A DNA stretch of 42,879 nucleotides from a virus, in the UHGV virus genome UHGV-0301147; one strand, written 5' to 3'. This document shows positions 4,827 to 30,448 of this stretch, in pieces. How positions within the stretch are numbered: the stretch's first letter is position 1; each line of letters opens with the position of its first letter. A program made the position numbers and the translations under genes. The notes under the pieces are model-generated. The model made no database searches. It saw only the letters and a program-made list of their open reading frames with translations, and was not told the DNA's origin.

Positions 4827-5339
4827 TTAATATACATGGAGAATACGAGCAACGCCCGCAAGAACGTCAACACCATTAATTACTCGTTTCATTTTTGCAG
4901 GATGAATCTCGTAAATAACTTTTCCATTTTGAACTCGTTTATAATAGCTCGGCGCAATCGTTACTGATTGCCCAACTGCTGATTTTGAATCAGTCCCCTG
5001 CGCGTCATCAGTAATCGCCGTAATAAGCCCCTCATATGTATCAATACGTTCAAAATTGACACCGTAATTGTCAGTATATGCACTTCGAATTTCGAACCTT
5101 GTTTTAGCACCTGGTATTAATCCAAAATACCCCATCACACCAGAATCGGAGCCAGAGACTTTAAAACTGGCTGACATTTTCTCCATTCCTCCGTCCAGAG
5201 TGATAGCTGTATCCATCGCGCCTGTTTTAAACTCGTCTTCGATTATTTTCATATCGACTGGAGTATATTCAGTACAATTTAAAACCCGTTCGCCCTGCAC
5301 GAATAGCGCAAACGCGCGGTAAGCGTTGCTGTCTGACAT
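4827..5339 (-). CDS. Contractile tail tube protein (gpFII-like)
   Basis: 170-aa ORF directly downstream of the sheath gene. Confidence 0.8.
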   Translation of the reverse strand: MSDSNAYRAFALFVQGERVLNCTEYTPVDMKIIEDEFKTGAMDTAITLDGGMEKMSASFKVSGSDSGVMGYFGLIPGAKTRFEIRSAYTDNYGVNFERIDTYEGLITAITDDAQGTDSKSAVGQSVTIAPSYYKRVQNGKVIYEIHPAKMKRVINGVDVLAGVARILHVY

Positions 5340-5356
5340 ATTTAATCTCCGAATTA

Positions 5357-6859
5357 TCAGGCTGCTTCTTTAAAAAGGGAGGCCAGTGCTTCAACTGTAT
5401 AGTCATTATTAATGCGGTACATTAACGTAATTGTTTGTGCCGGAGATTTCGGACCAAAATCAACATTAATATAAAGATTACCCGCAGCCAGGCTTTCTTT
5501 TGTATTCAGCTCACTGTCTAACCACGCACGCCCTCCGTTAATCGCACCCTGCTCCTCTAATTTGTGCAGATATGCGTTTATCGACTCGACAACGTCTGTT
5601 CCGAGGTGCAGGTCTATCGGACGAACAATAAAATCGGTCATCATTGCCCGGGCTATAGAATCCTCAATTACGTCAGCTGTTCGACGAACGCTCTCGAAAG
5701 ACCATTGCGGGCTGAGGCTGCACAAATAGTTACCCCAGTGTCTGAACCCGTCATAGCGAATAATCGTGCTGACCTGGCTGGCATTCAGCAGGTTCGCTGT
5801 GCAGTTTGTCTCACCAATAATAAAATCGTCGACTTGTTCAAGCCCTGTAACTCCGTAGATATTCTGGTTCGATTTACTCCACCAGAATCCTTTTTCATTA
5901 TCAATTCGGGCTCGTAAACCAGCAGCGATAGCTGAATACGGACGAGATAACCCACTGACATCACTCGTAGAATAAACGCGAGGTCGCAACAACTCAGCGC
6001 GTCCGCCGAGTTTTTGCCTGCGATTCACAACGTCTGCAGGGGTAGCAGCGCGCGGAGAGTCGATATAACACACTCCCCGGAGTTTATTTGCAACCACTTC
6101 AAGCTGAGCCGCTATTTCGTCTCGTGCGCTGTAATCCGGCGCTATAATAATTCGCGGGGTAACTTCGTTAATTTGCGCTGACGTCAAAAGCGAATTAATT
6201 CCGGCGATAACATTTTCGCTCATATCAGCGTCGTCGCTACTCTCTACAACGCGAACAACAACGATTAATGCATCAGTCTGATTTAAAATATCAGAAATAG
6301 CGGGGGGCAGAGTCCCGTATTTCCCGAGCAGGGCGGCTTTCTTCTGACTACCTGCAATTAATACAGGAGAATTAATCGGGAATGCGTCATCTGTTCCACC
6401 TGATAAATTTGTTGGTGGAAGACCAAATACTGTACCGGTTCCGGAATGCTCGCCACCAAAAGTTACATTAATCCACTCTCCGTCTGTTTTCCCCTCTCTA
6501 TATTCCTGATTCTGATCATACATTTTGCCGGGGGTCATTCCCGGCTCCGTAATCATCGTTAATTTTTTTGTTCCGTCGGGCAGCGTGCTATATCCTGGAG
6601 TGCAGGTTGCGCCCTCAACTGTCATATCTACAATTTCAACAACCCATTTGTTCCCGTCGCTGCCCGGTGATACAGTTGAAAACTCAACGAGATTATCAGC
6701 CAGCGATGAGCCCCACGTTAATGATGCTCTCGTAGCCTCCGCGACGTTCGTCGCAGTACCAACAATCCCAATCACGGAAATATCTACTGTGTTGATCTCT
6801 TTTGTGCCGTCGTCGTATTCGAGCGTGCGAATACCGTGCAAAAAATTAGTTACGCTCAT
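5357..6859 (-). CDS. Contractile tail sheath protein (gpFI-like)
   Basis: 500-aa ORF with sheath-family character, in sheath-tube-chaperone-tape measure order. Confidence 0.85.
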   Translation of the reverse strand: MSVTNFLHGIRTLEYDDGTKEINTVDISVIGIVGTATNVAEATRASLTWGSSLADNLVEFSTVSPGSDGNKWVVEIVDMTVEGATCTPGYSTLPDGTKKLTMITEPGMTPGKMYDQNQEYREGKTDGEWINVTFGGEHSGTGTVFGLPPTNLSGGTDDAFPINSPVLIAGSQKKAALLGKYGTLPPAISDILNQTDALIVVVRVVESSDDADMSENVIAGINSLLTSAQINEVTPRIIIAPDYSARDEIAAQLEVVANKLRGVCYIDSPRAATPADVVNRRQKLGGRAELLRPRVYSTSDVSGLSRPYSAIAAGLRARIDNEKGFWWSKSNQNIYGVTGLEQVDDFIIGETNCTANLLNASQVSTIIRYDGFRHWGNYLCSLSPQWSFESVRRTADVIEDSIARAMMTDFIVRPIDLHLGTDVVESINAYLHKLEEQGAINGGRAWLDSELNTKESLAAGNLYINVDFGPKSPAQTITLMYRINNDYTVEALASLFKEAA

Positions 6860-7245
6860 TTTATTCCTTCTCTATTTTCACCAATTCGCGTCGCTATTGC
6901 TTCTTTAAGCTCGGCCAAGTTTTCGATTTGCGCGTCAGATGCGGTTCCGGCATCTACTGCACACTGAATTGAGAATGCCTCAATTGACAGATCGCCAACA
7001 GTCCGTAATGTAGTCTGGAGTTTTTGCGTCTGCTCTTTTTTTACAAATTTAGAAATGCTCCCATAATCCCCGCTCAGCGCTCTTTCATATAAAACCCTAC
7101 CGTGTTCCTCGCAATCATTTTTCATTGCGGTGAATGGAATGTCGTTTCCAATCCCGTCAATATCGCAAATAATATTTATAGATAACCCATGCTCGTCATT
7201 AAAAACAGGGTTTGTTATTTTTCTAAATGAATCAACACTTATCAT
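6856..7245 (-). CDS. Tail fiber assembly protein (gpG-like)
   Basis: 129-aa ORF immediately downstream of the tail fiber gene; call is mainly positional. Confidence 0.55.
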   Translation of the reverse strand: MISVDSFRKITNPVFNDEHGLSINIICDIDGIGNDIPFTAMKNDCEEHGRVLYERALSGDYGSISKFVKKEQTQKLQTTLRTVGDLSIEAFSIQCAVDAGTASDAQIENLAELKEAIATRIGENREGIK

Positions 7246-8456
7246 TACGCAATCCTAATAGCTAAAAAACAGGCAGTCCCAATATCACCGACCCCGCCTG
7301 GTGAATACGCCATAGCTCGCCATGAGCCAACAAGGGGTGTGTCATAAAATGGTTTTGTGGCAATATCCGTGTTATATGAACCGGTATTATTTATACTAGC
7401 GTAATATAAATCACCTCCAGCCCATATGGAGCCCGGTAGTATTTGTGGTGCATGATTAATAGCGACAAGCGCATAAGTATTAACCGCGCCAACAACACCT
7501 ATTTCCGGTGATGGGTCCGGTGAAAGACTTATATCTATGTTGCCATTTTCATCCGGCGACTCCCCGTTAATCGTTTTAACCGGTTTAAGATTAGCCTCAT
7601 TCCAGTATTTATACGTCATTCCGCCACACAGTAATACCAGGCCATCATAGTGAACTCCGCGTAATCTATAAAAAACCTTCTGATTGTTTTCTCCACGGGT
7701 CGAAAAATCTAAATAATCGCCCGACACATCTGATAAACCAGCAAGTGAAAACAACGTCAAATCAGTGCCCGGTTTGTTTATATTTATTTGTTTTTTAGAG
7801 GATAAAACGTCTTCAAAAATCACATCATCTTTAAAAGTATTTGGATGAGTAAATGCATTACCCTTATCTCTATATGCAACGTCCCCATCTATACCAATAT
7901 TTTTCCGCGCAGCCTGCTGAGCAGTTTCACCATTTGCGGGAATTTCAGATAAGTTTTTACTTATCTGCAAATATTTTTTGTCAGCTTCCTCGGGAGTTAC
8001 GTAGTTGTCATATACTACAACATTAACCGTAGATGTGCTGGACACCGCGAGTGTGTATTTATACGTGATTGAAATCAGCGCACCGTTGCTGTCCGTAGGT
8101 TTTAAAATGTCCGGCGAGCGCGCCACAGAGTACAGCTCGCCTTTATCTGTTAATATCCCCACCTCACGGATAGTATAGCCCCCAGTGTCTGGCGGTACGT
8201 AAAGTGTAAAGATAACCTGGTTACCGCTATTTTCTGCGGATTTAATATCCCCACGATACGTCTCGTGAATTAATGCAGTTCGTGCCGGGTCCGGTGTTAC
8301 GTCGTCGTTTCCGTTTGCGTCGCCAATAACGAATTTATTCAGCACCACGGGTACACCCGATGCCAGCGCAGCGGCTTCAAGTTGCGCCCCCCGGTCTGTC
8401 AGTACCGCATAAACCTGGCTCGCGCTCGCTTTCAGATTTGATTTTAATTTAGCCAT
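7245..8456 (-). CDS. Tail fiber protein (gpH-like)
   Basis: 403-aa ORF after baseplate gene I with a conserved-looking N-terminus and a variable C-terminus. Confidence 0.75.
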   Translation of the reverse strand: MAKLKSNLKASASQVYAVLTDRGAQLEAAALASGVPVVLNKFVIGDANGNDDVTPDPARTALIHETYRGDIKSAENSGNQVIFTLYVPPDTGGYTIREVGILTDKGELYSVARSPDILKPTDSNGALISITYKYTLAVSSTSTVNVVVYDNYVTPEEADKKYLQISKNLSEIPANGETAQQAARKNIGIDGDVAYRDKGNAFTHPNTFKDDVIFEDVLSSKKQININKPGTDLTLFSLAGLSDVSGDYLDFSTRGENNQKVFYRLRGVHYDGLVLLCGGMTYKYWNEANLKPVKTINGESPDENGNIDISLSPDPSPEIGVVGAVNTYALVAINHAPQILPGSIWAGGDLYYASINNTGSYNTDIATKPFYDTPLVGSWRAMAYSPGGVGDIGTACFLAIRIA

Positions 8457-9075
8457 TAGGTCCTATCTCCACTAACAAACTCACAATTGGCGAGCCTGAT
8501 ATATATAGCCCGCCGTTAATTTTTACACCGCCGTCGCCGTCTGCTGGGATATTTACGCCTATTTTCGCGTAAGGCGCACCAGCTATAAAAAATTCACCAT
8601 CGACACCCGTTTCAAAATTTATTTCTTTTAATAAGGAACGGCAATTTTTTGCATCAAATATTTGTGCAATAAAGGTATTCAATAGTTCTAAATCTAACCC
8701 TATACTTTTTAGCAGATATATTTTAATTGCGAATGTATACGGGTCGTCCCTGGGCGTGGCTTCAAACCACTCTCTCATTTTGCTCTCAAATCCCACCGTT
8801 AATAATGCTCGTTCGACGGCACCACGCGTGCCGCGATGTTTATTTTGCCAGGCTGCGGCCTTAATAATTTCGCGTTTTTGCTGCTCGCTCCAGTCGGGGT
8901 TCCAGTAGGTGACCGCGTACTCCCACGCCAGCCACGGCAACAGATTTGCAGGGCACAAATCGGGATTTTTAATAATTCGAATATCGCCAGGCAGATCGCC
9001 GACGTGAGATAAAACAACCTCAAGCGCCCTCTCAGGGGTTATTGCGTTCGGAGGCAGTACGCTTTGACTTGTCAT
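8449..9075 (-). CDS. Baseplate/tail protein I (P2 gpI family)
   Basis: 208-aa ORF between J-like and H-like genes. Confidence 0.75.
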   Translation of the reverse strand: MTSQSVLPPNAITPERALEVVLSHVGDLPGDIRIIKNPDLCPANLLPWLAWEYAVTYWNPDWSEQQKREIIKAAAWQNKHRGTRGAVERALLTVGFESKMREWFEATPRDDPYTFAIKIYLLKSIGLDLELLNTFIAQIFDAKNCRSLLKEINFETGVDGEFFIAGAPYAKIGVNIPADGDGGVKINGGLYISGSPIVSLLVEIGPNG

Positions 9076-9077
9076 GG

Positions 9078-9998
9078 CTACCCCATTTGCACGCTGAGTT
9101 TGATTTCTGTGCAGTACGGAGCCTGTCCGACGCCAGCAATCACATCCTCTGTTGGCGATATCAGAATCACACGCTCCGTTCCGTCACGATGTATCGCGTC
9201 GTAAATTCCTGACAGGGCTGCTGTCGCCCCGATTTTATGTTGTGTAGCCACGTATATAGCTAAATCGCTTTGAGCACCGTTGAGCAACACGTTCTGATCG
9301 GGACCGAGCCCCGCTACGATAACGGCTTCAACCCGGTAATTCAGGTTCGACGCAGGTTTTACAGTCACGAAATCAGTCAGCGGTCGAGTATCGTCAGGAG
9401 ACAGGGCCGCATTCACTGTATTCAGTAGTGATTGAGGCGGAGTGCCGTCGCCGGTTCGCGACAAAACATACATATCGACGTATCCAGGCTGGGTCACCGG
9501 CGGGCCGTACGCCTGAGCTGACAGAACGTCGGGATCACTCGACAGCGCGAAATAGTTATAGGCGTTCGTACTGCCGGCAGTATTCCGCGCGTACCATGAT
9601 AGCTGTATGCGATGACGATACTCGTCGTCACTCTCGTAAACCGCCTCAGTCGGAGGAATTGCGTCAGGATTAGCTGGCGTTATCAACAGCCGCAGGCAGT
9701 CAAAATTAGCGCCGATCTGGTCGAGGTCACTCCCTTTTGCAAACGCGAGCAATACAGCGAGCATCCCCTGATTTACCCGAGCTGTAATAATGATTTCTCT
9801 GTATGCAACTATTTCCAGCAGTTTAACGGCCGGGTCTGACTCCAGGAGTGCGTTAAATTGTGGATATAATATCTGCAATTCTGACAGTAGACTGGATTTA
9901 ACATCTGAAAATAATGGGGTTTTAACGAATGCTGGCGGCGGCAGCAGACTCATATCAATAGTTTTCACTATCGAATTCTGAACTGTTGATGTTATCAA
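9078..9998 (-). CDS. Baseplate protein J
   Basis: 306-aa ORF with baseplate J character, in W-J-I order. Confidence 0.85.
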   Translation of the reverse strand: MITSTVQNSIVKTIDMSLLPPPAFVKTPLFSDVKSSLLSELQILYPQFNALLESDPAVKLLEIVAYREIIITARVNQGMLAVLLAFAKGSDLDQIGANFDCLRLLITPANPDAIPPTEAVYESDDEYRHRIQLSWYARNTAGSTNAYNYFALSSDPDVLSAQAYGPPVTQPGYVDMYVLSRTGDGTPPQSLLNTVNAALSPDDTRPLTDFVTVKPASNLNYRVEAVIVAGLGPDQNVLLNGAQSDLAIYVATQHKIGATAALSGIYDAIHRDGTERVILISPTEDVIAGVGQAPYCTEIKLSVQMG

Positions 9999-10384
9999 AA
10001 TATCAGTTCCATATTATTAAACTCTAATCGCTGTTGTGTTTCGATATCTGTTGCGATAATTAATATTGTTATTTTCCCGATGTCCACTGCTAACACATTT
10101 ATTCTGTCAATTCTGACGCGTGGTTCCCAGCGTGCTATTGCTCCTGCACTTTCCATTATTATTCTCATAGCAAGCGACGGATCAGTGGGATTATCAACGA
10201 GGTCAAATAATTTGCTGCCGTATTCCGGCAACATTACACGGGTTCCCAGCGGGGTCGTTAAAATATCAACGATAGACTGACAAATGTGATCAGTCCCCGA
10301 TAAAGGCTTACCGGTGTTACGGTCCATTCCAAGCATATTTACGCCATTGGTTGGTTCGGTTGTTGTGTTTCCCCGTCCGGACAT
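9995..10384 (-). CDS. Baseplate wedge protein, GPW/gp25 family
   Basis: 129-aa ORF with the MLPEYGS ... WEPR signature of the gpW/gp25 family. Confidence 0.85.
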   Translation of the reverse strand: MSGRGNTTTEPTNGVNMLGMDRNTGKPLSGTDHICQSIVDILTTPLGTRVMLPEYGSKLFDLVDNPTDPSLAMRIIMESAGAIARWEPRVRIDRINVLAVDIGKITILIIATDIETQQRLEFNNMELIF

Positions 10385-22102: not shown

Positions 22103-22452
22103 TTCTTAGAAATTTGGCAATATACCAAATTAGCGTTAAATATGGCCTATTTTGTTCGGTTTTGCAAGCATTATACGCAAACGTCGTCTAAATGGTTTTG
22201 ATAATGATGCAAAGTTGCAAGAAGTGCCACTTCATCAAGTGCTCTCACCGCCTCTTTCATTCCTGCCCAGTGCGGGGAGTATGTTTCGCACCAGGTGGAA
22301 CGAGAAACAGACAACATTCCAGCTAGCGCAGATCCGGCCATCTCCTTAAAATCCTCGCGTTTATTTGATGCTGCGACCGCCTGCACGGACAACCACACCA
22401 ACGAAAGCAGGCGCTTAACTACTTTTCTCTGAGTTGACGCGGGGATGTTTCC

Positions 22453-22480
22453 TTTATAGCGACTCCAGACAGCCTAACAA
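22453..22480 (-). promoter_or_regulatory. pR'-like late promoter candidate immediately after the Q-like gene
   Basis: Minus strand TTGTTA - 16 nt - TATAAA overlapping the stop of the 22474-22842 gene. Confidence 0.35.
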
Positions 22481-22842
22481 ATAGCTGTTTGGTGTTTGAA
22501 TGCCAGGTTACCACCGTAGCAATAACGCAACCACGCTTGCTGACTTGCATCCAGCGAGTTCACAGAACGCCGCCAGGATGAATCAGCAAATTCAAAATCA
22601 CTCATCGGCGGCGCGGGGCGACGTCTGCTGAAACTTTCCAGAGCGTAAACTGGCGTAACCAGAGCATCAACGGTCCGGTCCTCCAGCTGCACACGGTGAA
22701 TATGTTTGCGTGGGTATGCGTTTTTGTCTGCCGGTGGGTGCTCACACAATGCTTCCAGTTGCCCCTTAGAACCACCAGACAAATCCCGCAATGCAGCGCG
22801 CAGTTTTATGCGGGTATATTCCAATAAATACTCGTTACTCAT
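22474..22842 (-). CDS. Putative late-gene antiterminator (Q-like); assignment is positional
   Basis: 122-aa ORF between the YbcO-like gene and the promoter/terminator/holin region; lacks the DxD motif of RusA. Confidence 0.4.
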   Translation of the reverse strand: MSNEYLLEYTRIKLRAALRDLSGGSKGQLEALCEHPPADKNAYPRKHIHRVQLEDRTVDALVTPVYALESFSRRRPAPPMSDFEFADSSWRRSVNSLDASQQAWLRYCYGGNLAFKHQTAIC

Positions 22843-25742: not shown

Positions 25743-26231
25743 ATGGCTACCAACCCAAGAGAGCACGCCCGGCGAGTGCTGGACACGTTCTGGTGCGGGC
25801 GTGGTTTCCCTGTTGATCCAGCGAAAATTGCTCACGACATGGGATTAGATGTTTTTATTACCGATCTTCCTGGGAAAGTTTCTGGCGCACTGATTAAACA
25901 AAAAGATCAAGATCCAGCGATCTTTCTAAACAGTGATGACAACAAAGTTCGTCAACGTTTTTCATGTGGGCATGAGTTGGGGCATTACATCGCCCGGCAA
26001 GCATCGCATAGCGATGAATATGAGTACGTTGATTTACGTGGCGAAACCGCAAGCGCCGGAACGCATCCTGATGAAATTTTTGCGAACAAGTTCGCAGCAG
26101 AACTTCTGATGCCGGTAGATGAGGTCAGAAAACTGCACGCTGACGGCCAACCAAGTTATATAATGGCGCATCATTTTGGCGTATCTGACGATGCGATGAC
26201 TTATCGTTTAAAGAACTTGAGGTTGGGGTAA
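25743..26231 (+). CDS. ImmA/IrrE family zinc metallopeptidase
   Basis: 162-aa ORF with HEXXH motif (CGHELGHYIARQ) and strong SD GGAGGAG. Confidence 0.85.
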   Translation: MATNPREHARRVLDTFWCGRGFPVDPAKIAHDMGLDVFITDLPGKVSGALIKQKDQDPAIFLNSDDNKVRQRFSCGHELGHYIARQASHSDEYEYVDLRGETASAGTHPDEIFANKFAAELLMPVDEVRKLHADGQPSYIMAHHFGVSDDAMTYRLKNLRLG

Positions 26232-26240
26232 CGCTTTAGA

Positions 26241-26846
26241 ATGCCATCGGATGACGATTTTAACAGCCGTTTCAAACAGGAAGTTGCACGCCGACTGAAG
26301 GATTCCCTCAACCTACACCGTCAGTTAGCAGAAGAGGTTGAGCCGGAGGAGGATGAAACTCCGGTTCAGTCTCCTGACGAAACTTCACCTCAGACAAAGG
26401 TTTCGCACGCTCCAAAAAAACCGTCTGCCCGTATTCACGGAATAGCCAGAAAAAGAGCTGCCGAAGCTCACAAAATGGCTGTAGCTGCGTCAATCAAAAG
26501 AATTCCAATTCCTACCCCCTCTCAACAAGTCACCCGTACTGAGAGTAAAATCTTGACCGAGTTCACATCTGTGAAACAGGTGAGTTCACTTGATACCGAG
26601 CATGAGCGCAAACAACTCAACAACAAAGATTTTGAAGCTGAAATCGCTCTAAAAAAACGCTACGGAAAATGGTTCCTGATAATCCTTGCTTGCCAACTTC
26701 TGATAATGAATGGTGTATTTATTGCCGACGGCGCAGGTAAGCTGGAATTTGAAGATTTAACGCTACAGTTGTACATGGGCGGTACTTTGACAGAGGTATT
26801 CGGCCTCGTGCTGGTCGTGACAAAATACCTTTTTAAACGCAAGTAA
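26241..26846 (+). CDS. Hypothetical membrane protein (acidic N-terminal region, two C-terminal transmembrane helices), co-operonic with the ImmA-like gene
   Basis: 201-aa ORF starting 9 bp after the ImmA-like stop; hydrophobic segments KWFLIILACQLLIMNGVFIA and GGTLTEVFGLVLVVTKYLF. Confidence 0.6.
   Translation: MPSDDDFNSRFKQEVARRLKDSLNLHRQLAEEVEPEEDETPVQSPDETSPQTKVSHAPKKPSARIHGIARKRAAEAHKMAVAASIKRIPIPTPSQQVTRTESKILTEFTSVKQVSSLDTEHERKQLNNKDFEAEIALKKRYGKWFLIILACQLLIMNGVFIADGAGKLEFEDLTLQLYMGGTLTEVFGLVLVVTKYLFKRK
26775..26846 (+). repeat. Direct repeat copy A (last 24 codons of the membrane-protein gene)
   Basis: 72 bp matching 30377-30448 with 6 mismatches. Confidence 0.8.
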
Positions 26847-26955
26847 CTCTCTCTATGGAACAGACTTTAGTCGATTTAATGGAGAAGACCAGCAACCCCA
26901 AATGACCAAGTAACAAGTGCTGGCCTTATAGACGATTACTGAGTGTGTTCGAGTG

Positions 26956-27360
26956 TTATCGTTGTACAATTCGTCCGTTGGGATCCAGCCACATCCCATC
27001 AGAAAGATACACCATTTCCCTGGGTTCATCCGTTACCTGCAGGTCATGGTAAATTGAAGTAAGCTCATTTTTAGGTGAAGGAGTGATATCTTCGCTTCCA
27101 AAGATCATATCTTGGTATTGTGCCCAATTTTGGCGAATTTCGAAATACATATCAACATCATAATCCTGCCCTCTTAGTTCATCATCTGAAGATATATTCA
27201 ATGTCTTTTTGAGACCGATGATGTTAAAGATCCACTTCTTACCACCTTTAATGAAGTATGCCCCAGTATATGCCTCTTCATCTGGTACAGCCTCATAACC
27301 TAAATTTAATGCTAATTGTATCTGTTCTGCTAATGTAAAAGACTCTTTCCATCCACTCAT
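26956..27360 (-). CDS. Hypothetical acidic protein
   Basis: 134-aa ORF in the low-GC cassette; no family recognised. Confidence 0.5.
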   Translation of the reverse strand: MSGWKESFTLAEQIQLALNLGYEAVPDEEAYTGAYFIKGGKKWIFNIIGLKKTLNISSDDELRGQDYDVDMYFEIRQNWAQYQDMIFGSEDITPSPKNELTSIYHDLQVTDEPREMVYLSDGMWLDPNGRIVQR

Positions 27361-27680
27361 AGCTTATTACCTACCTGTGAACCTGTTTGCTGCATGAAAA
27401 ACAATATAATAAAGCGTTATTGAAGACTATGAACCAAGTAAATTTAATCAAAGACGTTTATAACGCATTTGCCTAAACAACTTCCACCGTATGATCCGCT
27501 TCTCGCTCTCAGCAGACCTTTATCTGCAGGTGCTTGTCTGCTGTGTTCCAGAAGCAGATATTATTATATAACTCTTTAACCCATGTATGACAAAATATTC
27601 TTGGAGCTTATTAAAACTTCATACGTCTAAATCACCTCTTCATTAGTGAATCAATAATTGTATAGTTAAAATGTAACACT

Positions 27681-28346
27681 TTATTTTTTATGATTAACTT
27701 GCTTTGCTAAAGAGCTATAAATCATATCAACCAAAACATATTTTTCGCATTCCCAAGGTTCACTAATAGATGGGTTTACTAAGTCTGGCTTCCCCCCCAT
27801 TAGTGTATGAACATGCGAATAAATACCTATTCTTTCTGCGAGTTGCATTATTTTTATTTGATGTTCTGGTGGGAGCATTTTGTTTTTAAACCATGTTGTA
27901 AATATATGCTTGGTAAGTTCCTTAGTACAAACAAACCATTCACCTTGACGTCTTTCGTTGCTAAATTTTTCATGAAGATAATTTTCTTTTTCTGAACCAC
28001 CAGGTTCCAAAGCGTGTAATATTAATTGACCAAATGCACCTGTTTGCAGGTTAGACAACCTTTTTAGCACATTATTGGAACGCCCTATTTTCACATAAAG
28101 TCCCGAGTAAGGGTTATTTTTATCTGAAGAACCGGCCCAAGTATCAGGCACTTGTAAAATATAATAAATACTACTTACTTTCCCACTCGATACATTATTT
28201 GCCCAAATCTGCCATTCTTCCATCCAGCTTTTTGCATCTTCTCTCGTGTCAAAGGCATGACTTGTATAGTAAAATTCACCAGTATCCAAGAACATATCGA
28301 AAACATATTTGCCATTCTCTATAATTCTTAAGTTGTCGGCTTTCAT
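27681..28346 (-). CDS. T5orf172 (MUG113, GIY-YIG-like) domain protein; putative defence-type nuclease
   Basis: 221-aa ORF containing LYVKIGRSNNVLKRLSNLQTG ... ENYLHEKFSNERRQGEWF, matching the T5orf172 signature (YKIG-T ... R ... L ... E ... LH ... F ... R ... GEWF); AT-rich. Confidence 0.75.
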   Translation of the reverse strand: MKADNLRIIENGKYVFDMFLDTGEFYYTSHAFDTREDAKSWMEEWQIWANNVSSGKVSSIYYILQVPDTWAGSSDKNNPYSGLYVKIGRSNNVLKRLSNLQTGAFGQLILHALEPGGSEKENYLHEKFSNERRQGEWFVCTKELTKHIFTTWFKNKMLPPEHQIKIMQLAERIGIYSHVHTLMGGKPDLVNPSISEPWECEKYVLVDMIYSSLAKQVNHKK

Positions 28347-28550
28347 GGAAGTTTCTCACAAAGTTACAGGAATATATAAAAACTTTACTACGCTTAGTAT
28401 ATGTTACCACCTGATTATGTATTATTTGATTTACACAACTTATTGCTAGTAATAACGGTTTTGATGTAATCTTCTCATCCCAAACTAACCTTCAAAATAG
28501 ATTTAATCTAAATTATATCAAAATATGCTCTCAGTTAAGATGGCTTATTT

Positions 28551-28748
28551 TTAATCAGTTAGAGGATCAACCTGATTTTCTCTAATAAGATTTCGTAACG
28601 CAGTACGAGCAGCCGCGACTTCTGTCATTCCATTTAGAACCACGCTGGAATGCCCTCCTCTAACCCCAAAGACTGTGACCATATCCTCTTCACGGAAGTA
28701 TTCTGCTTCATACTGAAGGCCATCTTTCTCTACGCGAATATATGACAT
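28551..28748 (-). CDS. Small hypothetical protein
   Basis: 65-aa ORF with SD GAGG, upstream of the T5orf172 gene. Confidence 0.45.
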   Translation of the reverse strand: MSYIRVEKDGLQYEAEYFREEDMVTVFGVRGGHSSVVLNGMTEVAAARTALRNLIRENQVDPLTD

Positions 28749-29374
28749 AACAACCTCATTTTATTATCTTTTGTTTGAATGATATATCCACAAAATAATT
28801 TAAGCAATCTCGCCCAAGACGGCACGCCAAGCTTGCCTTGTAAGTATAATGTAAATATTCCGATAAAACTAATCATTCGCTTTTAGCGCATGTCCAAAAA
28901 ATGGTTCAGGTATCCTATCGTGCCAATATTCGCTCCTCACTCATAGCGGCTTTCAGGCAAGTTAACTAGTCCGCTCGGTGCCATATAGAGCCATGGTTAT
29001 TAACAGCAGGGAATAATTCCACACTGAAATTAAATGTCTGCCTTTTACAGTAGAAATAGTTTCTCCAGGACACTATCCATTGCCGGGCACAATCACTCGG
29101 GGTATAACGATATAAAATATGTTCATGATAGTGCAGGTTCGTATATTAAGTTCAGCAGCGAAAACATGCCTTACAGGTTTCCGGTTTTGGGAGCGTCGTT
29201 ACAGGATCCTGCGCATACCGTTCCCATCTGTTGAATTAAAGGTTTCACAGCCTTTGCCGATATCGCCTTTTACCTTGCCTGTGATGCGTTCAGTGCTCAG
29301 CGTTGTTTACTGTAGCTCTCGGAACTGATTACAGACCGCGTCTTAAAAACCAATCCTTACTCTAAAGGGAATTC

Positions 29375-30298
29375 ATGAGATTAAAATACTCAGTACTCTT
29401 ACTCGCCATTGCCCTTACAGGCTGTGATAACAAAAAAGATGAGATCGGTTGTTCTTCGGAAATGACCCAATCAGCTCTCATGGATTTATTAAAAAAATCT
29501 GCTTATGAAGGACTCTCTGAACAGGTCGATAAATACCCTGATGTCACTAATCAGACCAAACGAAGCACACTGGACAAGATCAAACTAGCCGTCTCTGAAA
29601 TCTCCACAACATCAAGTGACACGGGCAGCACAATGAAAACTTGTGAAGGGACCGTGACGATGACTCTACCTGCGAACGAGTACGTCCAGCTTTCAGATGC
29701 TTACAGAAAGAATTTTAATCGTAATCTCGACAAGCAAATGGAAAGCCTGTTTTTGGAGAACAACGCAAACGCCTTTTCCAAACGTATCACCTACACCGTG
29801 CAGGCGACCGACGATCAGAAAAACGTTTTTGTAAAAACCTCTTCTGATAATCCGATATCAGTGGGCGCCGCTTTACTGACATCACTTTCTATTATCAACC
29901 CGATCGTTGAGCAGCAGAAAATCCAGCAGGCTAAGGATGCCCAACAGAGCCAAATTGAAGCGGAACAACAGGTGCAACTCAGGGCGCAGGAACAGGCTAA
30001 GTATGAGGCGGAGAAGCAAATAGAGAGACAGGCACAACTTCAGCCACAAAAAGCTGACAGCCTTGATCAGTCCCGAATGGCATTTGCGAATGCCGACTCT
30101 GATTTGAGTACCGTCTGGAGCAAGTTAACCCCGGCGAAGAAAAAAGATTTGCTGCCTTCTCAGCGTCAGTGGATCAAAACTAAGGATGCTATGTGCGGTA
30201 AAGTTTCAATGCAGGGAACAGATGCTGAAGTCAAGAAAATGCTCGACTGCCAGACGCAAATGACCCTTTCAAGAATCGCTTTCCTCAGAAACCAATAA
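29375..30298 (+). CDS. Lipoprotein with Gln-rich coiled-coil region and C-terminal DUF1311 (LprI-like) domain
   Basis: 307-aa ORF with lipobox LTGC and C-terminal DLLPSQRQWIKTKDAMCG ... MLDCQTQMTLSRIAFL typical of DUF1311. Confidence 0.7.
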   Translation: MRLKYSVLLLAIALTGCDNKKDEIGCSSEMTQSALMDLLKKSAYEGLSEQVDKYPDVTNQTKRSTLDKIKLAVSEISTTSSDTGSTMKTCEGTVTMTLPANEYVQLSDAYRKNFNRNLDKQMESLFLENNANAFSKRITYTVQATDDQKNVFVKTSSDNPISVGAALLTSLSIINPIVEQQKIQQAKDAQQSQIEAEQQVQLRAQEQAKYEAEKQIERQAQLQPQKADSLDQSRMAFANADSDLSTVWSKLTPAKKKDLLPSQRQWIKTKDAMCGKVSMQGTDAEVKKMLDCQTQMTLSRIAFLRNQ

Positions 30299-30346: not shown

Positions 30347-30376
30347 AGTCATCAAGTGCATATTTAACTGTTTTAT

Positions 30377-30448
30377 ATGGGCGGTACTTTGACAGAGGTA
30401 TTCGGTCTCGTGCTGGTCGTGGTCAAATACCTTTTTAAACGCAAATAG
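30377..30448 (+). repeat. Direct repeat copy B (orphan 24-codon remnant of the membrane-protein gene 3' end)
   Basis: 72 bp matching 26775-26846; retains ATG and a stop but no upstream gene body. Confidence 0.8.

What the first reader, a model, noticed from the sequence alone, without database searches (positions are those of the whole stretch)
26956..28748. T5orf172 (GIY-YIG-like) protein with two unknown neighbours inside the AT-rich cassette
The 221-aa protein has a clear T5orf172/MUG113 signature fused to an uncharacterised ~75-aa N-terminal region and a ~70-aa C-terminal tail. It is flanked by an acidic 134-aa protein and a 65-aa protein, all on the minus strand with 200-320 bp gaps. T5orf172 domains recur in anti-phage systems; this domain combination and neighbourhood are not ones I can assign to a named system.
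Basis: partly seen in the sequence, partly recalled or inferred. Interest (0 to 1): 0.7.

Follow-up and report, generated by a model that had tools for sequence, protein, structure and literature searches.

The report
Stand-alone T5orf172 nuclease in prophage cargo slot
The three genes are real but are not one system: they are separately acquired cargo in a swap-prone slot of an E. coli prophage, and the middle gene encodes a rare, self-sufficient GIY-YIG nuclease that usually sits beside known anti-phage genes, so it is a plausible but untested one-gene defence.

Summary
Three minus-strand ORFs (134, 221 and 65 aa) lie at the stated coordinates, separated by 320- and 204-bp gaps, in a 36.5% GC patch. 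The 221-aa protein passes the Pfam T5orf172 and MUG113 thresholds.

Window 26869-28973 is a swap slot in a lambdoid prophage: 18 E. coli genomes carry this cargo and about 413 carry another. The cargo is a mosaic. The 134-aa gene occurs alone elsewhere, and IS1 disrupts it in one strain without loss of the nuclease gene. The 65-aa gene travels with the nuclease only among relatives at least 88% identical, and it occurs without the nuclease in 92 E. coli genomes. The nuclease gene is a single-ORF integron cassette in two Vibrio species.

The 221-aa protein folds confidently (pLDDT 90) as a YegP-like N-terminal domain, an intact GIY-YIG core and a basic helical tail. It is under purifying selection. 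Only about 12 clusters among 1.84 billion representatives belong to the family. It matches no named defence model, yet 9 of 17 contexts have defence genes nearby.

Best reading: an autonomous defence nuclease (confidence 0.5). Main rival: a selfish homing endonuclease.

The parts
26869..28973 (.). Variable cargo slot of the prophage, 2,105 bp at GC 0.365, holding the three ORFs
   Evidence: Homology to the common prophage variant (L031) stops at 26868 and resumes at 28974. The cargo is present in 18 of 5,426 E. coli genomes; about 413 related prophages carry a different 232-aa gene here, and L030 carries a GmrSD_N/DUF262 gene.
27681..28346 (-). Gene for the 221-aa T5orf172-clade GIY-YIG nuclease, which is the functional core of the finding
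28176..28346 (-). Codons 1-57: acidic N-terminal beta-beta-beta-alpha domain with a YegP/UPF0339 (DUF1508)-like fold; the fastest-evolving part
27924..28175 (-). Codons 58-141: GIY-YIG catalytic core
   Evidence: Invariant Y61, Y62, K86-I87-G88, R96, E121, H125 and G135-E136-W137-F138 in 26 sequences ranging from 39 to 90% identity to the window protein. Strand/helix order beta59-66, beta84-90, alpha93-101, beta107-115, alpha118-127, beta137-139. dN/dS 0.03-0.12.
27684..27923 (-). Codons 142-221: basic helical C-terminal region specific to this family
   Evidence: Helices at 142-155, 160-183 and 212-219. pI 9.1 and mean pairwise identity 0.49. Invariant L158, P159, H162, N191, P192, W198, D207. 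No Pfam hit.
28551..28748 (-). Gene for a 65-aa protein of unknown function; a co-travelling neighbour, not an obligate partner
27495..28844 (.). 1.35-kb DNA block (65-aa gene, spacer, nuclease gene) shared with other mobile elements
   Evidence: 85-87% nucleotide identity to an E. ludwigii island (L011) and a Morganella prophage edge (L012). Only 27669-28313 (the ORF alone) is shared with E. cloacae at 81%.
28347..28550 (-). 204-bp AT-rich spacer (GC 0.279) upstream of the nuclease gene, with a promoter-like extended -10 (TGATATAAT at 28520-28512)
   Evidence: Read directly from the sequence. The spacer is 89% conserved in six loci, but the -10 is perfect only here, and the window copy has a 46-bp deletion. 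The promoter scan is not above chance. No Rfam match.
26956..27360 (-). Gene for an acidic 134-aa protein (pI 4.37); independently acquired cargo, unrelated in distribution to the nuclease

Best explanation
Window 26869-28973 is a cargo slot in the early-right region of a lambdoid E. coli prophage, between the replication genes and Q. The prophage itself is probably defective. The slot is filled by a mosaic of at least two separately acquired pieces. The functional unit is the 221-aa protein alone. It is a soluble, compact GIY-YIG (T5orf172-clade) endonuclease with three parts: a fast-evolving YegP/DUF1508-like N-terminal domain, an intact catalytic core, and a basic helical C-terminal region. 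I propose that it is a single-gene anti-phage or anti-mobile-element nuclease expressed from its own promoter in the lysogen. In this model the N-terminal domain acts as a specificity or sensor module, and possibly as a dimerisation module. DUF1508 domains dimerise into a Whirly-like fold that resembles single-stranded nucleic-acid binders. Dimerisation would bring two one-strand-nicking GIY-YIG cores together on invading DNA or on replication intermediates, with the basic tail adding DNA affinity. Host DNA would be spared by substrate specificity or autoinhibition rather than by a partner protein. Shown here: the slot and its mosaic structure, the autonomy of the gene, the fold, conservation of the catalytic residues, purifying selection, and neighbourhoods rich in defence genes. 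Inferred: expression in the lysogen, nuclease activity, dimerisation, the target, and the defence phenotype.
Against: There are no experimental data for this family. It matches no PADLOC model except a weak, domain-level hit to the candidate PDC-S57. The defence association is guilt by association over 17 contexts, with no computed background rate. An untethered GIY-YIG nuclease can be toxic, as SNIPE lacking its membrane anchor is, and I have no evidence for how self DNA is spared. The YegP similarity is structural only, at modest Z (6.2), and dimerisation was not modelled. The promoter call is not above chance. The family is very rare, which is unusual for a broadly useful defence gene.
Confidence: 0.5

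Rival explanations
1. The 221-aa gene is a selfish free-standing homing endonuclease gene, like the T5orf172 homing genes of ICP1 and T5-like phages. It spreads by cutting alleles that lack it and confers no benefit on the host.
For: T5orf172 genes are abundant, experimentally supported homing endonuclease genes in phages. The gene sits in a prophage, has a patchy distribution, and its ORF alone is shared with E. cloacae at 81% nucleotide identity while the flanks differ. One IS-disrupted copy exists (P0110).
Against: No full-length relative is found in 50,697 phage genomes, and only three are found on IMG/VR viral contigs, all resembling enterobacterial prophages. The protein has none of the Zn-finger DNA-binding modules (CapR, DUF723, DUF4397) typical of T5orf172 homing genes; it has only two Cys. 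It is a compact globule (pTM 0.85), not a nuclease tethered to a DNA-binding domain by a linker. In this prophage the polymorphism is a 2.1-kb cargo swap, not an ORF-sized insertion beside an essential gene. In Vibrio the gene moves as an integron cassette. Purifying selection is strong in every context examined.
Confidence: 0.2
2. In Enterobacterales the functional unit is a two-gene module. The 65-aa protein acts as regulator, immunity factor or adaptor for the nuclease, and other lineages use a different solution.
For: The 65-aa gene lies directly upstream in all six loci where the nuclease is at least 88% identical, within four different element types. The 1.35-kb block, including its spacer, is conserved at 85-89%. 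Both genes are under purifying selection. The 65-aa gene also precedes other conflict-type genes: an FRG-domain gene with a CTD1/MComp1/AAA_15 set in Providencia, and an ABC-three-component system in Nissle.
Against: The nuclease occurs without it in E. cloacae (76% identity), in all marine and cyanobacterial members, and as single-gene integron cassettes. The 65-aa gene occurs without any T5orf172 gene in 92 of the 110 E. coli genomes that have it. A 204-252-bp spacer separates the two genes, rather than an operon-like junction. The 65-aa fold is not HTH or RHH. Adjacency at 85-87% nucleotide identity can be explained by recent transfer of a single DNA block.
Confidence: 0.12
3. The 221-aa protein serves the prophage or the host in a role other than defence. 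Examples are a domesticated DNA-binding regulator like PLE CapR, or a structure-specific repair or recombination nuclease like SLX1.
For: CapR shows that T5orf172 homing-gene relatives can be domesticated as repressors. The best solved-structure matches for the core are SLX1-type structure-specific nucleases. The gene lies on the early-operon strand between the replication and Q modules.
Against: Invariance of the catalytic residues argues against a purely DNA-binding role. The gene is absent from about 413 otherwise near-identical prophages, so it is not needed for the phage life cycle. Its presence in integron arrays, next to restriction-modification, PARIS, AbiV and Shango genes, and on chromosomal islands does not fit a phage-specific regulator.
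Confidence: 0.1
4. All three genes form one defence system: nuclease effector plus two accessory proteins.
For: The three genes share a strand and lie together in one AT-rich insert. Within E. coli all 18 carriers have all three.
Against: The 18 carriers are one prophage lineage at 99% identity or more, so they give no independent support. The 134-aa gene lies outside the block shared with other elements, never neighbours another family member, occurs alone in Salmonella, Proteus and Citrobacter, and is IS1-disrupted in one carrier.
Confidence: 0.03

Closest known systems
SNIPE / PD-lambda-1 (single-gene membrane-anchored GIY-YIG defence nuclease; bioRxiv 10.1101/2025.11.03.685801)
   Same: One gene. 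It has a GIY-YIG-type nuclease domain whose catalytic Glu is required for defence, a variable N-terminal adaptor region, and it was found in E. coli accessory DNA.
   Different: SNIPE has an N-terminal transmembrane anchor and a DUF4041 DNA-binding domain, with the nuclease at the C-terminus of a protein of more than 414 residues. The window protein has no hydrophobic segment (maximum Kyte-Doolittle score 0.49), no DUF4041 and no match to any PADLOC model other than PDC-S57. It is cytoplasmic and compact, so SNIPE's way of avoiding self-cleavage, by membrane tethering, cannot apply.
T5orf172 free-standing homing endonucleases of ICP1, T5-like and VpaJT-like phages; Odn; CapR (PMC10448857, PMC8263062)
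   Same: The same Pfam nuclease clade (T5orf172/MUG113) with the same core motifs (KIG, R, E..LH, GEWF).
   Different: Those proteins carry CapR, DUF723 or DUF4397 zinc-finger or RepA-N DNA-binding modules, and their genes sit beside essential genes of lytic phages. This family has a YegP-like N-terminal domain and a unique helical tail. It is absent from sequenced lytic phages and lives in cargo slots, defence islands and integron arrays.
PADLOC candidate PDC-S57 (unvalidated single-gene candidate)
   Same: A single protein of similar length (models of 212 and 221 positions) containing a T5orf172-like domain. Fifteen of 26 family members match it weakly (best E 2.5e-5).
   Different: Only the nuclease core aligns, and it sits at positions 18-98 of the PDC-S57 model against residues 83-157 here. 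The architecture therefore differs, and the score (14.9 bits for the window protein) is far below a family-level match.
DUF1508/YegP (UPF0339) domains used as N-terminal sensor domains in Menshen NsnA and other defence proteins (PMC12065111)
   Different: There is no sequence-level match to Pfam DUF1508 even at E<=10. The domain is present as a single copy rather than in tandem. Its function here is inferred only.

Membership tests
GIY-YIG superfamily, T5orf172/MUG113 clade | Sequence match to Pfam PF10544 or PF13455 above the gathering threshold | tested here: met
   MUG113 39.9 bits (cut-off 22.3); T5orf172 30.8 bits (cut-off 20).
GIY-YIG superfamily, T5orf172/MUG113 clade | GIY-YIG alpha/beta fold: a three-stranded sheet flanked by helices | tested here: met
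   [not shown]
GIY-YIG superfamily, T5orf172/MUG113 clade | Conserved catalytic set: Tyr in strand 1, Arg in helix 1, Glu after strand 3 | tested here: met
   Y61/Y62, R96, E121 and E136 are invariant in 26 sequences. Assigning them to the I-TevI residues Y6, R27, E75 and N90 is my inference from spacing and secondary structure.
GIY-YIG superfamily, T5orf172/MUG113 clade | Endonuclease activity | not testable with these tools
   This needs purified protein and an E121A control.
SNIPE / PD-lambda-1 | N-terminal membrane anchor or other membrane-targeting domain | tested here: not met
   The maximum 19-residue Kyte-Doolittle hydropathy is 0.49, against 2.25 for the neighbouring 201-aa membrane protein. 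The N-terminus folds as a soluble beta-beta-beta-alpha domain.
SNIPE / PD-lambda-1 | DUF4041 domain and a match to a PADLOC model of a named GIY-YIG system | tested here: not met
   No DUF4041 in Pfam. No match to any PADLOC model other than PDC-S57, for any of 26 members.
Free-standing T5orf172 homing endonuclease gene | Modular DNA-binding domain (CapR, DUF723 or DUF4397 zinc finger, or similar) joined to the nuclease | tested here: not met
   No such Pfam hit, including for the isolated N- and C-terminal segments at E<=10. The protein has only two Cys. It is a compact single globule with pTM 0.85.
Free-standing T5orf172 homing endonuclease gene | Located in phage genomes beside conserved essential genes, with ORF-sized presence/absence polymorphism | tested here: not met
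   No full-length hits in 50,697 phage records. The polymorphism here is a 2.1-kb swap of three genes for a different 1.9-kb segment.
Free-standing T5orf172 homing endonuclease gene | Homing: cleavage of the allele lacking the gene, followed by gene conversion | not testable with these tools
   This needs co-infection or cleavage-site mapping experiments.
Multi-gene defence system or toxin-antitoxin module (the three ORFs together) | Conserved co-occurrence of the component genes across unrelated genomes | tested here: not met
   phmmer of p65 and p134 against all six-frame ORFs of the loci. All-vs-all comparison of neighbours across 17 loci. Independent contexts of each neighbour family. E. 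coli counts of 18, 18 and 110 genomes.
Multi-gene defence system or toxin-antitoxin module (the three ORFs together) | Operon-like organisation with short or overlapping junctions | tested here: not met
   The gaps are 320 and 204 bp of AT-rich DNA, each with promoter-like hexamers.
Integron gene cassette (Vibrio members of the family) | A single ORF bounded by attC recombination sites within a cassette array | tested here: met
   L008: attC-like repeats at 5995-6033 and 6793-6831, among 16 copies in the array. L037: repeats at 5861-5982 and 6658-6779, among 10 copies. The cassettes are 797-798 nt. This applies to the homologs, not to the window copy.

The most novel reading that the evidence does not exclude
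This rare family would be a previously unrecognised single-protein anti-phage system. It is defined by a YegP-like N-terminal domain, a T5orf172 core and a unique basic helical tail, and comprises about 12 clusters among 1.84 billion representatives. It would be a soluble GIY-YIG nuclease that avoids self-cleavage without membrane tethering, DNA modification or a partner, through substrate sensing or dimerisation by its N-terminal domain. It spreads as prophage cargo, island cargo and integron cassettes from Enterobacterales to cyanobacteria.
Probability: 0.4. Interest if true: 0.55.

Novelty: new variant of a known kind. Interest (0 to 1): 0.4.

Why it matters
If the 221-aa protein defends alone, it would be among the smallest self-contained nuclease defences known. 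It would also raise a clear mechanistic question that SNIPE answers by membrane tethering: how does a free cytoplasmic GIY-YIG nuclease tell invader DNA from self DNA? The family's presence as 0.8-kb integron cassettes makes it easy to test. The analysis also gives a practical caution. Same-strand neighbours inside an AT-rich prophage insert are not a system. Here the insert is a mosaic in a recombination-prone cargo slot of a prophage lineage carried by hundreds of E. coli genomes, about 430 of 5,426. That slot could itself be mined for other cargo, such as the GmrSD-like gene or the 232-aa alternative allele.

Tried and rejected
- **Near-identical DNA in phages:** a megablast against phage records found nothing.
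- **Proteins against phages:** tblastn of the three proteins found only core-domain hits for the nuclease, one Salmonella chromosomal hit for the 134-aa protein, and none for the 65-aa protein.
- **Plasmids:** no match for the nuclease.
- **NCBIfam:** no hit for any of the three proteins.
- **RNA elements:** an Rfam scan of 26500-29500 at E<=1 found nothing, so the long spacers hold no known RNA element.
- **Promoters and terminators:** counts were at or below the shuffled expectation, so I do not rely on them.
- **Solved structures by sequence:** only noise.
- **Foldseek afdb50:** not installed, so whole-architecture neighbours in the AlphaFold database could not be checked.
- **BFVD:** only the core domain aligned.
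- **Fold of the 65-aa protein:** a confident model but no informative match. I therefore reject an HTH or RHH antitoxin or repressor reading, but I cannot assign a function.
- **P0110:** it looked like an independent occurrence of the C-terminal region, but it is an IS transposase fragment fused to a disrupted copy of the gene.
- **AriA-like ATPases:** they lie near the gene in three loci. I considered a specific T5orf172-PARIS link and rejected it as a system, because orientation, distance and ATPase subfamily differ (PARIS, PDC-M25, HEC-01A-like). I treat this as a defence-island signal only.
- **ImmA/201-aa pair next door:** I considered it as part of the unit and rejected that, because it is present in 431 genomes, about 413 of which lack the cassette.
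Full report
**1. The observation.** The three ORFs exist as described. A 134-aa ORF lies at 26956-27360, a 221-aa ORF at 27681-28346 and a 65-aa ORF at 28551-28748. All are on the minus strand, separated by 320 bp and 204 bp. The region is AT-rich (GC 0.365 for 26869-28973 against 0.484 for the window). The 134-aa protein is acidic (pI 4.37). The 221-aa protein passes Pfam gathering thresholds for MUG113 (6.4e-10) and T5orf172 (4.4e-7). It matches phrog_8130 over its whole length (3.6e-78). Neither neighbour hits Pfam, PHROGs, PADLOC or NCBIfam. All three are real genes. Each has a conserved family in Enterobacterales. dN/dS is 0.13-0.19 for the nuclease gene and 0.09-0.20 for the 65-aa gene.

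**2. Where it sits.** The window is a lambdoid prophage of E. coli, with a lambda-like head and a P2-like baseplate. It is integrated beside the tRNA-Leu/Cys/Gly and pgsA-uvrC locus. The three genes lie on the strand of the early-right operon. On one side are the replication genes, an ORF6N antirepressor and a plus-strand LprI lipoprotein gene. On the other are a plus-strand ImmA/IrrE gene with a 201-aa membrane-protein gene, then DUF1367, DUF1364, Q and the lysis genes. Q carries an internal stop in the window, as it does in the annotated twin, so the prophage is probably defective.

**3. The three genes fill a cargo slot.** Only 18 of 5,426 complete E. coli genomes hold the cassette. All copies are at least 99% identical and lie in the same prophage. 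The adjacent ImmA/201-aa pair is present in 431 genomes. A BLAST comparison against the common variant shows homology ending at window 26868 and resuming at 28974. The variable segment is therefore exactly the three genes. The common variant carries a different 1.9-kb segment with a 232-aa gene. A third variant carries a GmrSD_N/DUF262 gene and an IS3 element. A direct repeat of about 81-119 bp (26765-26871 and 30367-30447) brackets the slot together with the LprI gene in all variants.

**4. The cassette is a mosaic, not a module.**
- *Nested DNA blocks.* The block shared with an E. ludwigii CP4-57-like island (L011) and a Morganella prophage edge (L012) is window 27495-28844. It covers the 65-aa gene, the spacer and the nuclease gene at 85-87% nucleotide identity. 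Only the nuclease ORF (27669-28313, 81%) is shared with E. cloacae. The 134-aa gene lies outside both blocks.
- *The 65-aa gene is the only recurrent neighbour.* An all-vs-all comparison of neighbour ORFs across 17 loci finds it in only the six loci where the nuclease is at least 88% identical. phmmer finds no relative of it in the other loci.
- *The 65-aa gene also lives without the nuclease.* It is present in 110 E. coli genomes, and 92 of them have no T5orf172 gene at all. In Nissle 1917 it follows an ABC-three-component system on the selC island. In Providencia it precedes an FRG-domain gene and a CTD1/MComp1/AAA_15 set. In Citrobacter it sits in a CP4-44-like island.
- *The nuclease gene moves alone in Vibrio.* In V. 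vulnificus and V. pacinii it is a single-ORF cassette of 797-798 nt between attC-like repeats, inside long cassette arrays that also hold toxin-antitoxin genes. Integron cassettes are mobilised one at a time, so this is strong evidence that the protein works alone.

**5. The protein.** Twenty-six full-length relatives (39-90% identity to the window protein) align end to end. The invariant positions are:
- N-terminal domain: W45, W48.
- Core and the loop between its first two strands: Y61, Y62, P67, W70, G72, G82, L83, K86-I87-G88, R96, L100, T102, G103, E121, H125, F128, R132, R133, G135-E136-W137-F138, H147.
- C-terminal region: L158, P159, H162, N191, P192, W198, D207.

AlphaFold2 on this alignment gives a confident, compact model (pLDDT 90.4, pTM 0.85) with three parts:
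- *Residues 1-57:* three strands and a helix.
- *Residues 58-141:* a beta-beta-alpha-beta-alpha-beta core.
- *Residues 142-221:* helices and an extended segment.

The core is the most conserved part (mean pairwise identity 0.66, dN/dS 0.03-0.12). The N-terminal domain is the least conserved (0.32, dN/dS 0.18-0.39). The tail is intermediate (0.49) and basic (pI 9.1). There is no hydrophobic segment.

**6. How rare it is.** An exhaustive HMMER search of 1.84 billion cluster representatives finds 29,644 proteins that share the T5orf172 core. Only 12 reach E<=1e-30, about five full-length clusters plus fragments. After that the score drops sharply to core-only matches. The pattern-based scan of about 100,000 species genomes finds 12 full-length loci: Escherichia, Citrobacter, Enterobacter, Thiohalophilus, three Vibrio species, Pseudoalteromonas, Colwellia, Moritella, Cylindrospermum and Trichormus. 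IMG/VR holds three. The phage and plasmid collections hold none.

**7. Neighbourhoods.** Nine of 17 distinct contexts have a PADLOC-recognised defence or candidate gene nearby. In eight it lies within about two genes, and in L033 it lies about 3 kb away.

| Locus | Source | Neighbouring gene(s) |
|---|---|---|
| L003 | E. cloacae | PARIS AriA/AriB |
| L035 | Enterobacter genomosp. O | AbiV |
| L053 | viral contig | Mokosh-like helicase |
| L034 | Citrobacter | Shango SngC (1e-188) |
| L040 | Vibrio sp. | Eco29kI-type endonuclease plus C5 methyltransferase |
| L042 | Trichormus | AAA_15/21 ATPase pair |
| L014 | metagenome scaffold | DUF3800/PDC-M04A plus a BrxHI-like helicase |
| L036 | Thiohalophilus | DUF3800-like |
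| L033 | E. whittamii twin of this prophage | PDC-M25A/B, 3 kb away |

Two further contexts are integron cassettes, and one is the end of a CTX-like filamentous prophage. This is the classic guilt-by-association signal, but I could not compute a background rate.

**8. Comparison with what is known.** T5orf172 is a GIY-YIG subfamily best known from free-standing homing endonuclease genes of ICP1, T5-like and other phages, and from Odn and the domesticated CapR. Those proteins carry zinc-finger or RepA-N DNA-binding modules and sit beside essential phage genes. This family does neither.

Among defence systems, PD-T4-3, PD-lambda-1 and Uzume are listed as single-gene GIY-YIG systems. PD-lambda-1, now called SNIPE, is a transmembrane-DUF4041-GIY-YIG protein that cuts phage DNA at injection, and it is toxic when untethered from the membrane. 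PADLOC gives no match for any of the 26 members to any model other than PDC-S57, and that match is weak and limited to the core domain (15 of 26 members, best E 2.5e-5).

DUF1508 domains dimerise. They have been proposed as Whirly-like sensors of single-stranded nucleic acid at the N-termini of defence effectors.

**9. Most likely mechanism.** I judge it most likely, at about 0.5, that the 221-aa protein is an autonomous defence nuclease carried as prophage, island or integron cargo. Its variable N-terminal domain would confer target specificity, and perhaps dimerisation, pairing two single-strand-nicking cores. The basic tail would add DNA affinity. Self DNA would be spared by substrate selectivity or autoinhibition. 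Expression from its own promoter is plausible: a perfect extended -10 (TGATATAAT) lies at 28520-28512. It is unproven, because that motif is weaker in the sister loci and the scan is not above chance.

The main rival, at about 0.2, is a selfish homing endonuclease. Smaller possibilities are a two-gene module specific to Enterobacterales with the 65-aa protein (0.12), a non-defence nuclease or regulator (0.1), and the original three-gene system (0.03).

**10. Verdict.** The interesting object is narrower than proposed. It is one gene: a rare, distinct architecture within a very large and well-known nuclease clade, in a context rich in defence genes, with no experimental evidence. I rate it a new variant of a known kind, with interest 0.4.

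Noticed in passing
window 25743-26846 (+): An ImmA/IrrE metalloprotease (162 aa; PADLOC capP 1.6e-25) is followed after 9 nt by a 201-aa protein with a C-terminal hydrophobic segment (Kyte-Doolittle 2.25; phrog_5346). No HTH partner is visible. The pair is present at about 97% identity in 431 of 5,426 E. coli genomes, independently of the cassette. It is an unusual protease plus membrane-protein pairing and may be a module in its own right.
   Followed up: partly
window 26765-26871 and 30367-30447: A direct repeat of about 81-119 bp. One copy is the 3' end of the 201-aa gene; the other lies between the LprI stop and the ORF6N stop. The repeat brackets the cargo slot together with the LprI gene. 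The same repeat pair brackets the alternative cargo in L030 and L031, so it may be the recombination substrate that makes the slot swappable.
   Followed up: partly
window 22171-22842 (-): The Q antiterminator gene has an in-frame stop at codon 123, and it is annotated as a pseudogene in the identical prophage. The prophage is probably defective for late gene expression.
   Followed up: partly
[not shown]
   Followed up: yes
L066 (E. coli Nissle 1917) 6001-9641; L021 (Providencia) 5001-10186: The 65-aa family repeatedly sits beside predicted conflict systems. In Nissle it lies 39 bp downstream of a 608-aa gene that follows ABC-three-component system genes on the selC island. In Providencia it lies upstream of an FRG-domain gene and a CTD1/MComp1/AAA_15 set. 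It might be a generic accessory or boundary gene of island cargo regions.
   Followed up: partly
L002 (Salmonella SPI-3, STM3752); L024 and L025 (Proteus); L027-L029 (Citrobacter braakii): The acidic 134-aa family is itself a stand-alone gene at prophage and island edges. In Proteus it is followed by a 371-aa gene and ApeA (HEPN). In Citrobacter it lies beside ogr/gpD of a P2-like prophage. Its acidity and location would fit a DNA mimic or anti-defence protein, which I did not test.
   Followed up: partly
L031 8170-10095 (E. coli AR_0089): The common alternative cargo in the same slot is a 232-aa protein with no Pfam domain and a weak PADLOC match to the DRT-associated RTasTM model (1.8e-5). 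About 1.2 kb of unannotated DNA lies next to it.
   Followed up: no
L011 3176-4892 (-) (Enterobacter ludwigii): A second, unrelated T5orf172 protein (268 aa, with the domain at the C-terminus, residues 176-244) lies 2 kb from the family member. It overlaps by operon-like spacing with a 302-aa protein of unknown function, which makes the pair a possible two-gene T5orf172 system.
   Followed up: no
L040 6836-8619 (Vibrio sp. Of7-15): The family member is followed directly by an Eco29kI-family restriction endonuclease, which is itself a GIY-YIG enzyme, and a C5 cytosine methyltransferase. Two different GIY-YIG nucleases therefore sit side by side.
   Followed up: no
L041 and L042 (Cylindrospermum, Trichormus): The cyanobacterial copies lie a few kb from nitrogenase component-1 genes and share two other neighbours. 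They may sit inside a DNA element that interrupts or flanks the nif cluster.
   Followed up: no
window 28347-28550 compared with L011, L012, L034, L035 and L053: The window's spacer upstream of the nuclease gene has a 46-bp deletion relative to the five sister loci. It is also the only copy with a perfect extended -10 (TGATATAAT), which may mean that expression differs in this lineage.
   Followed up: partly
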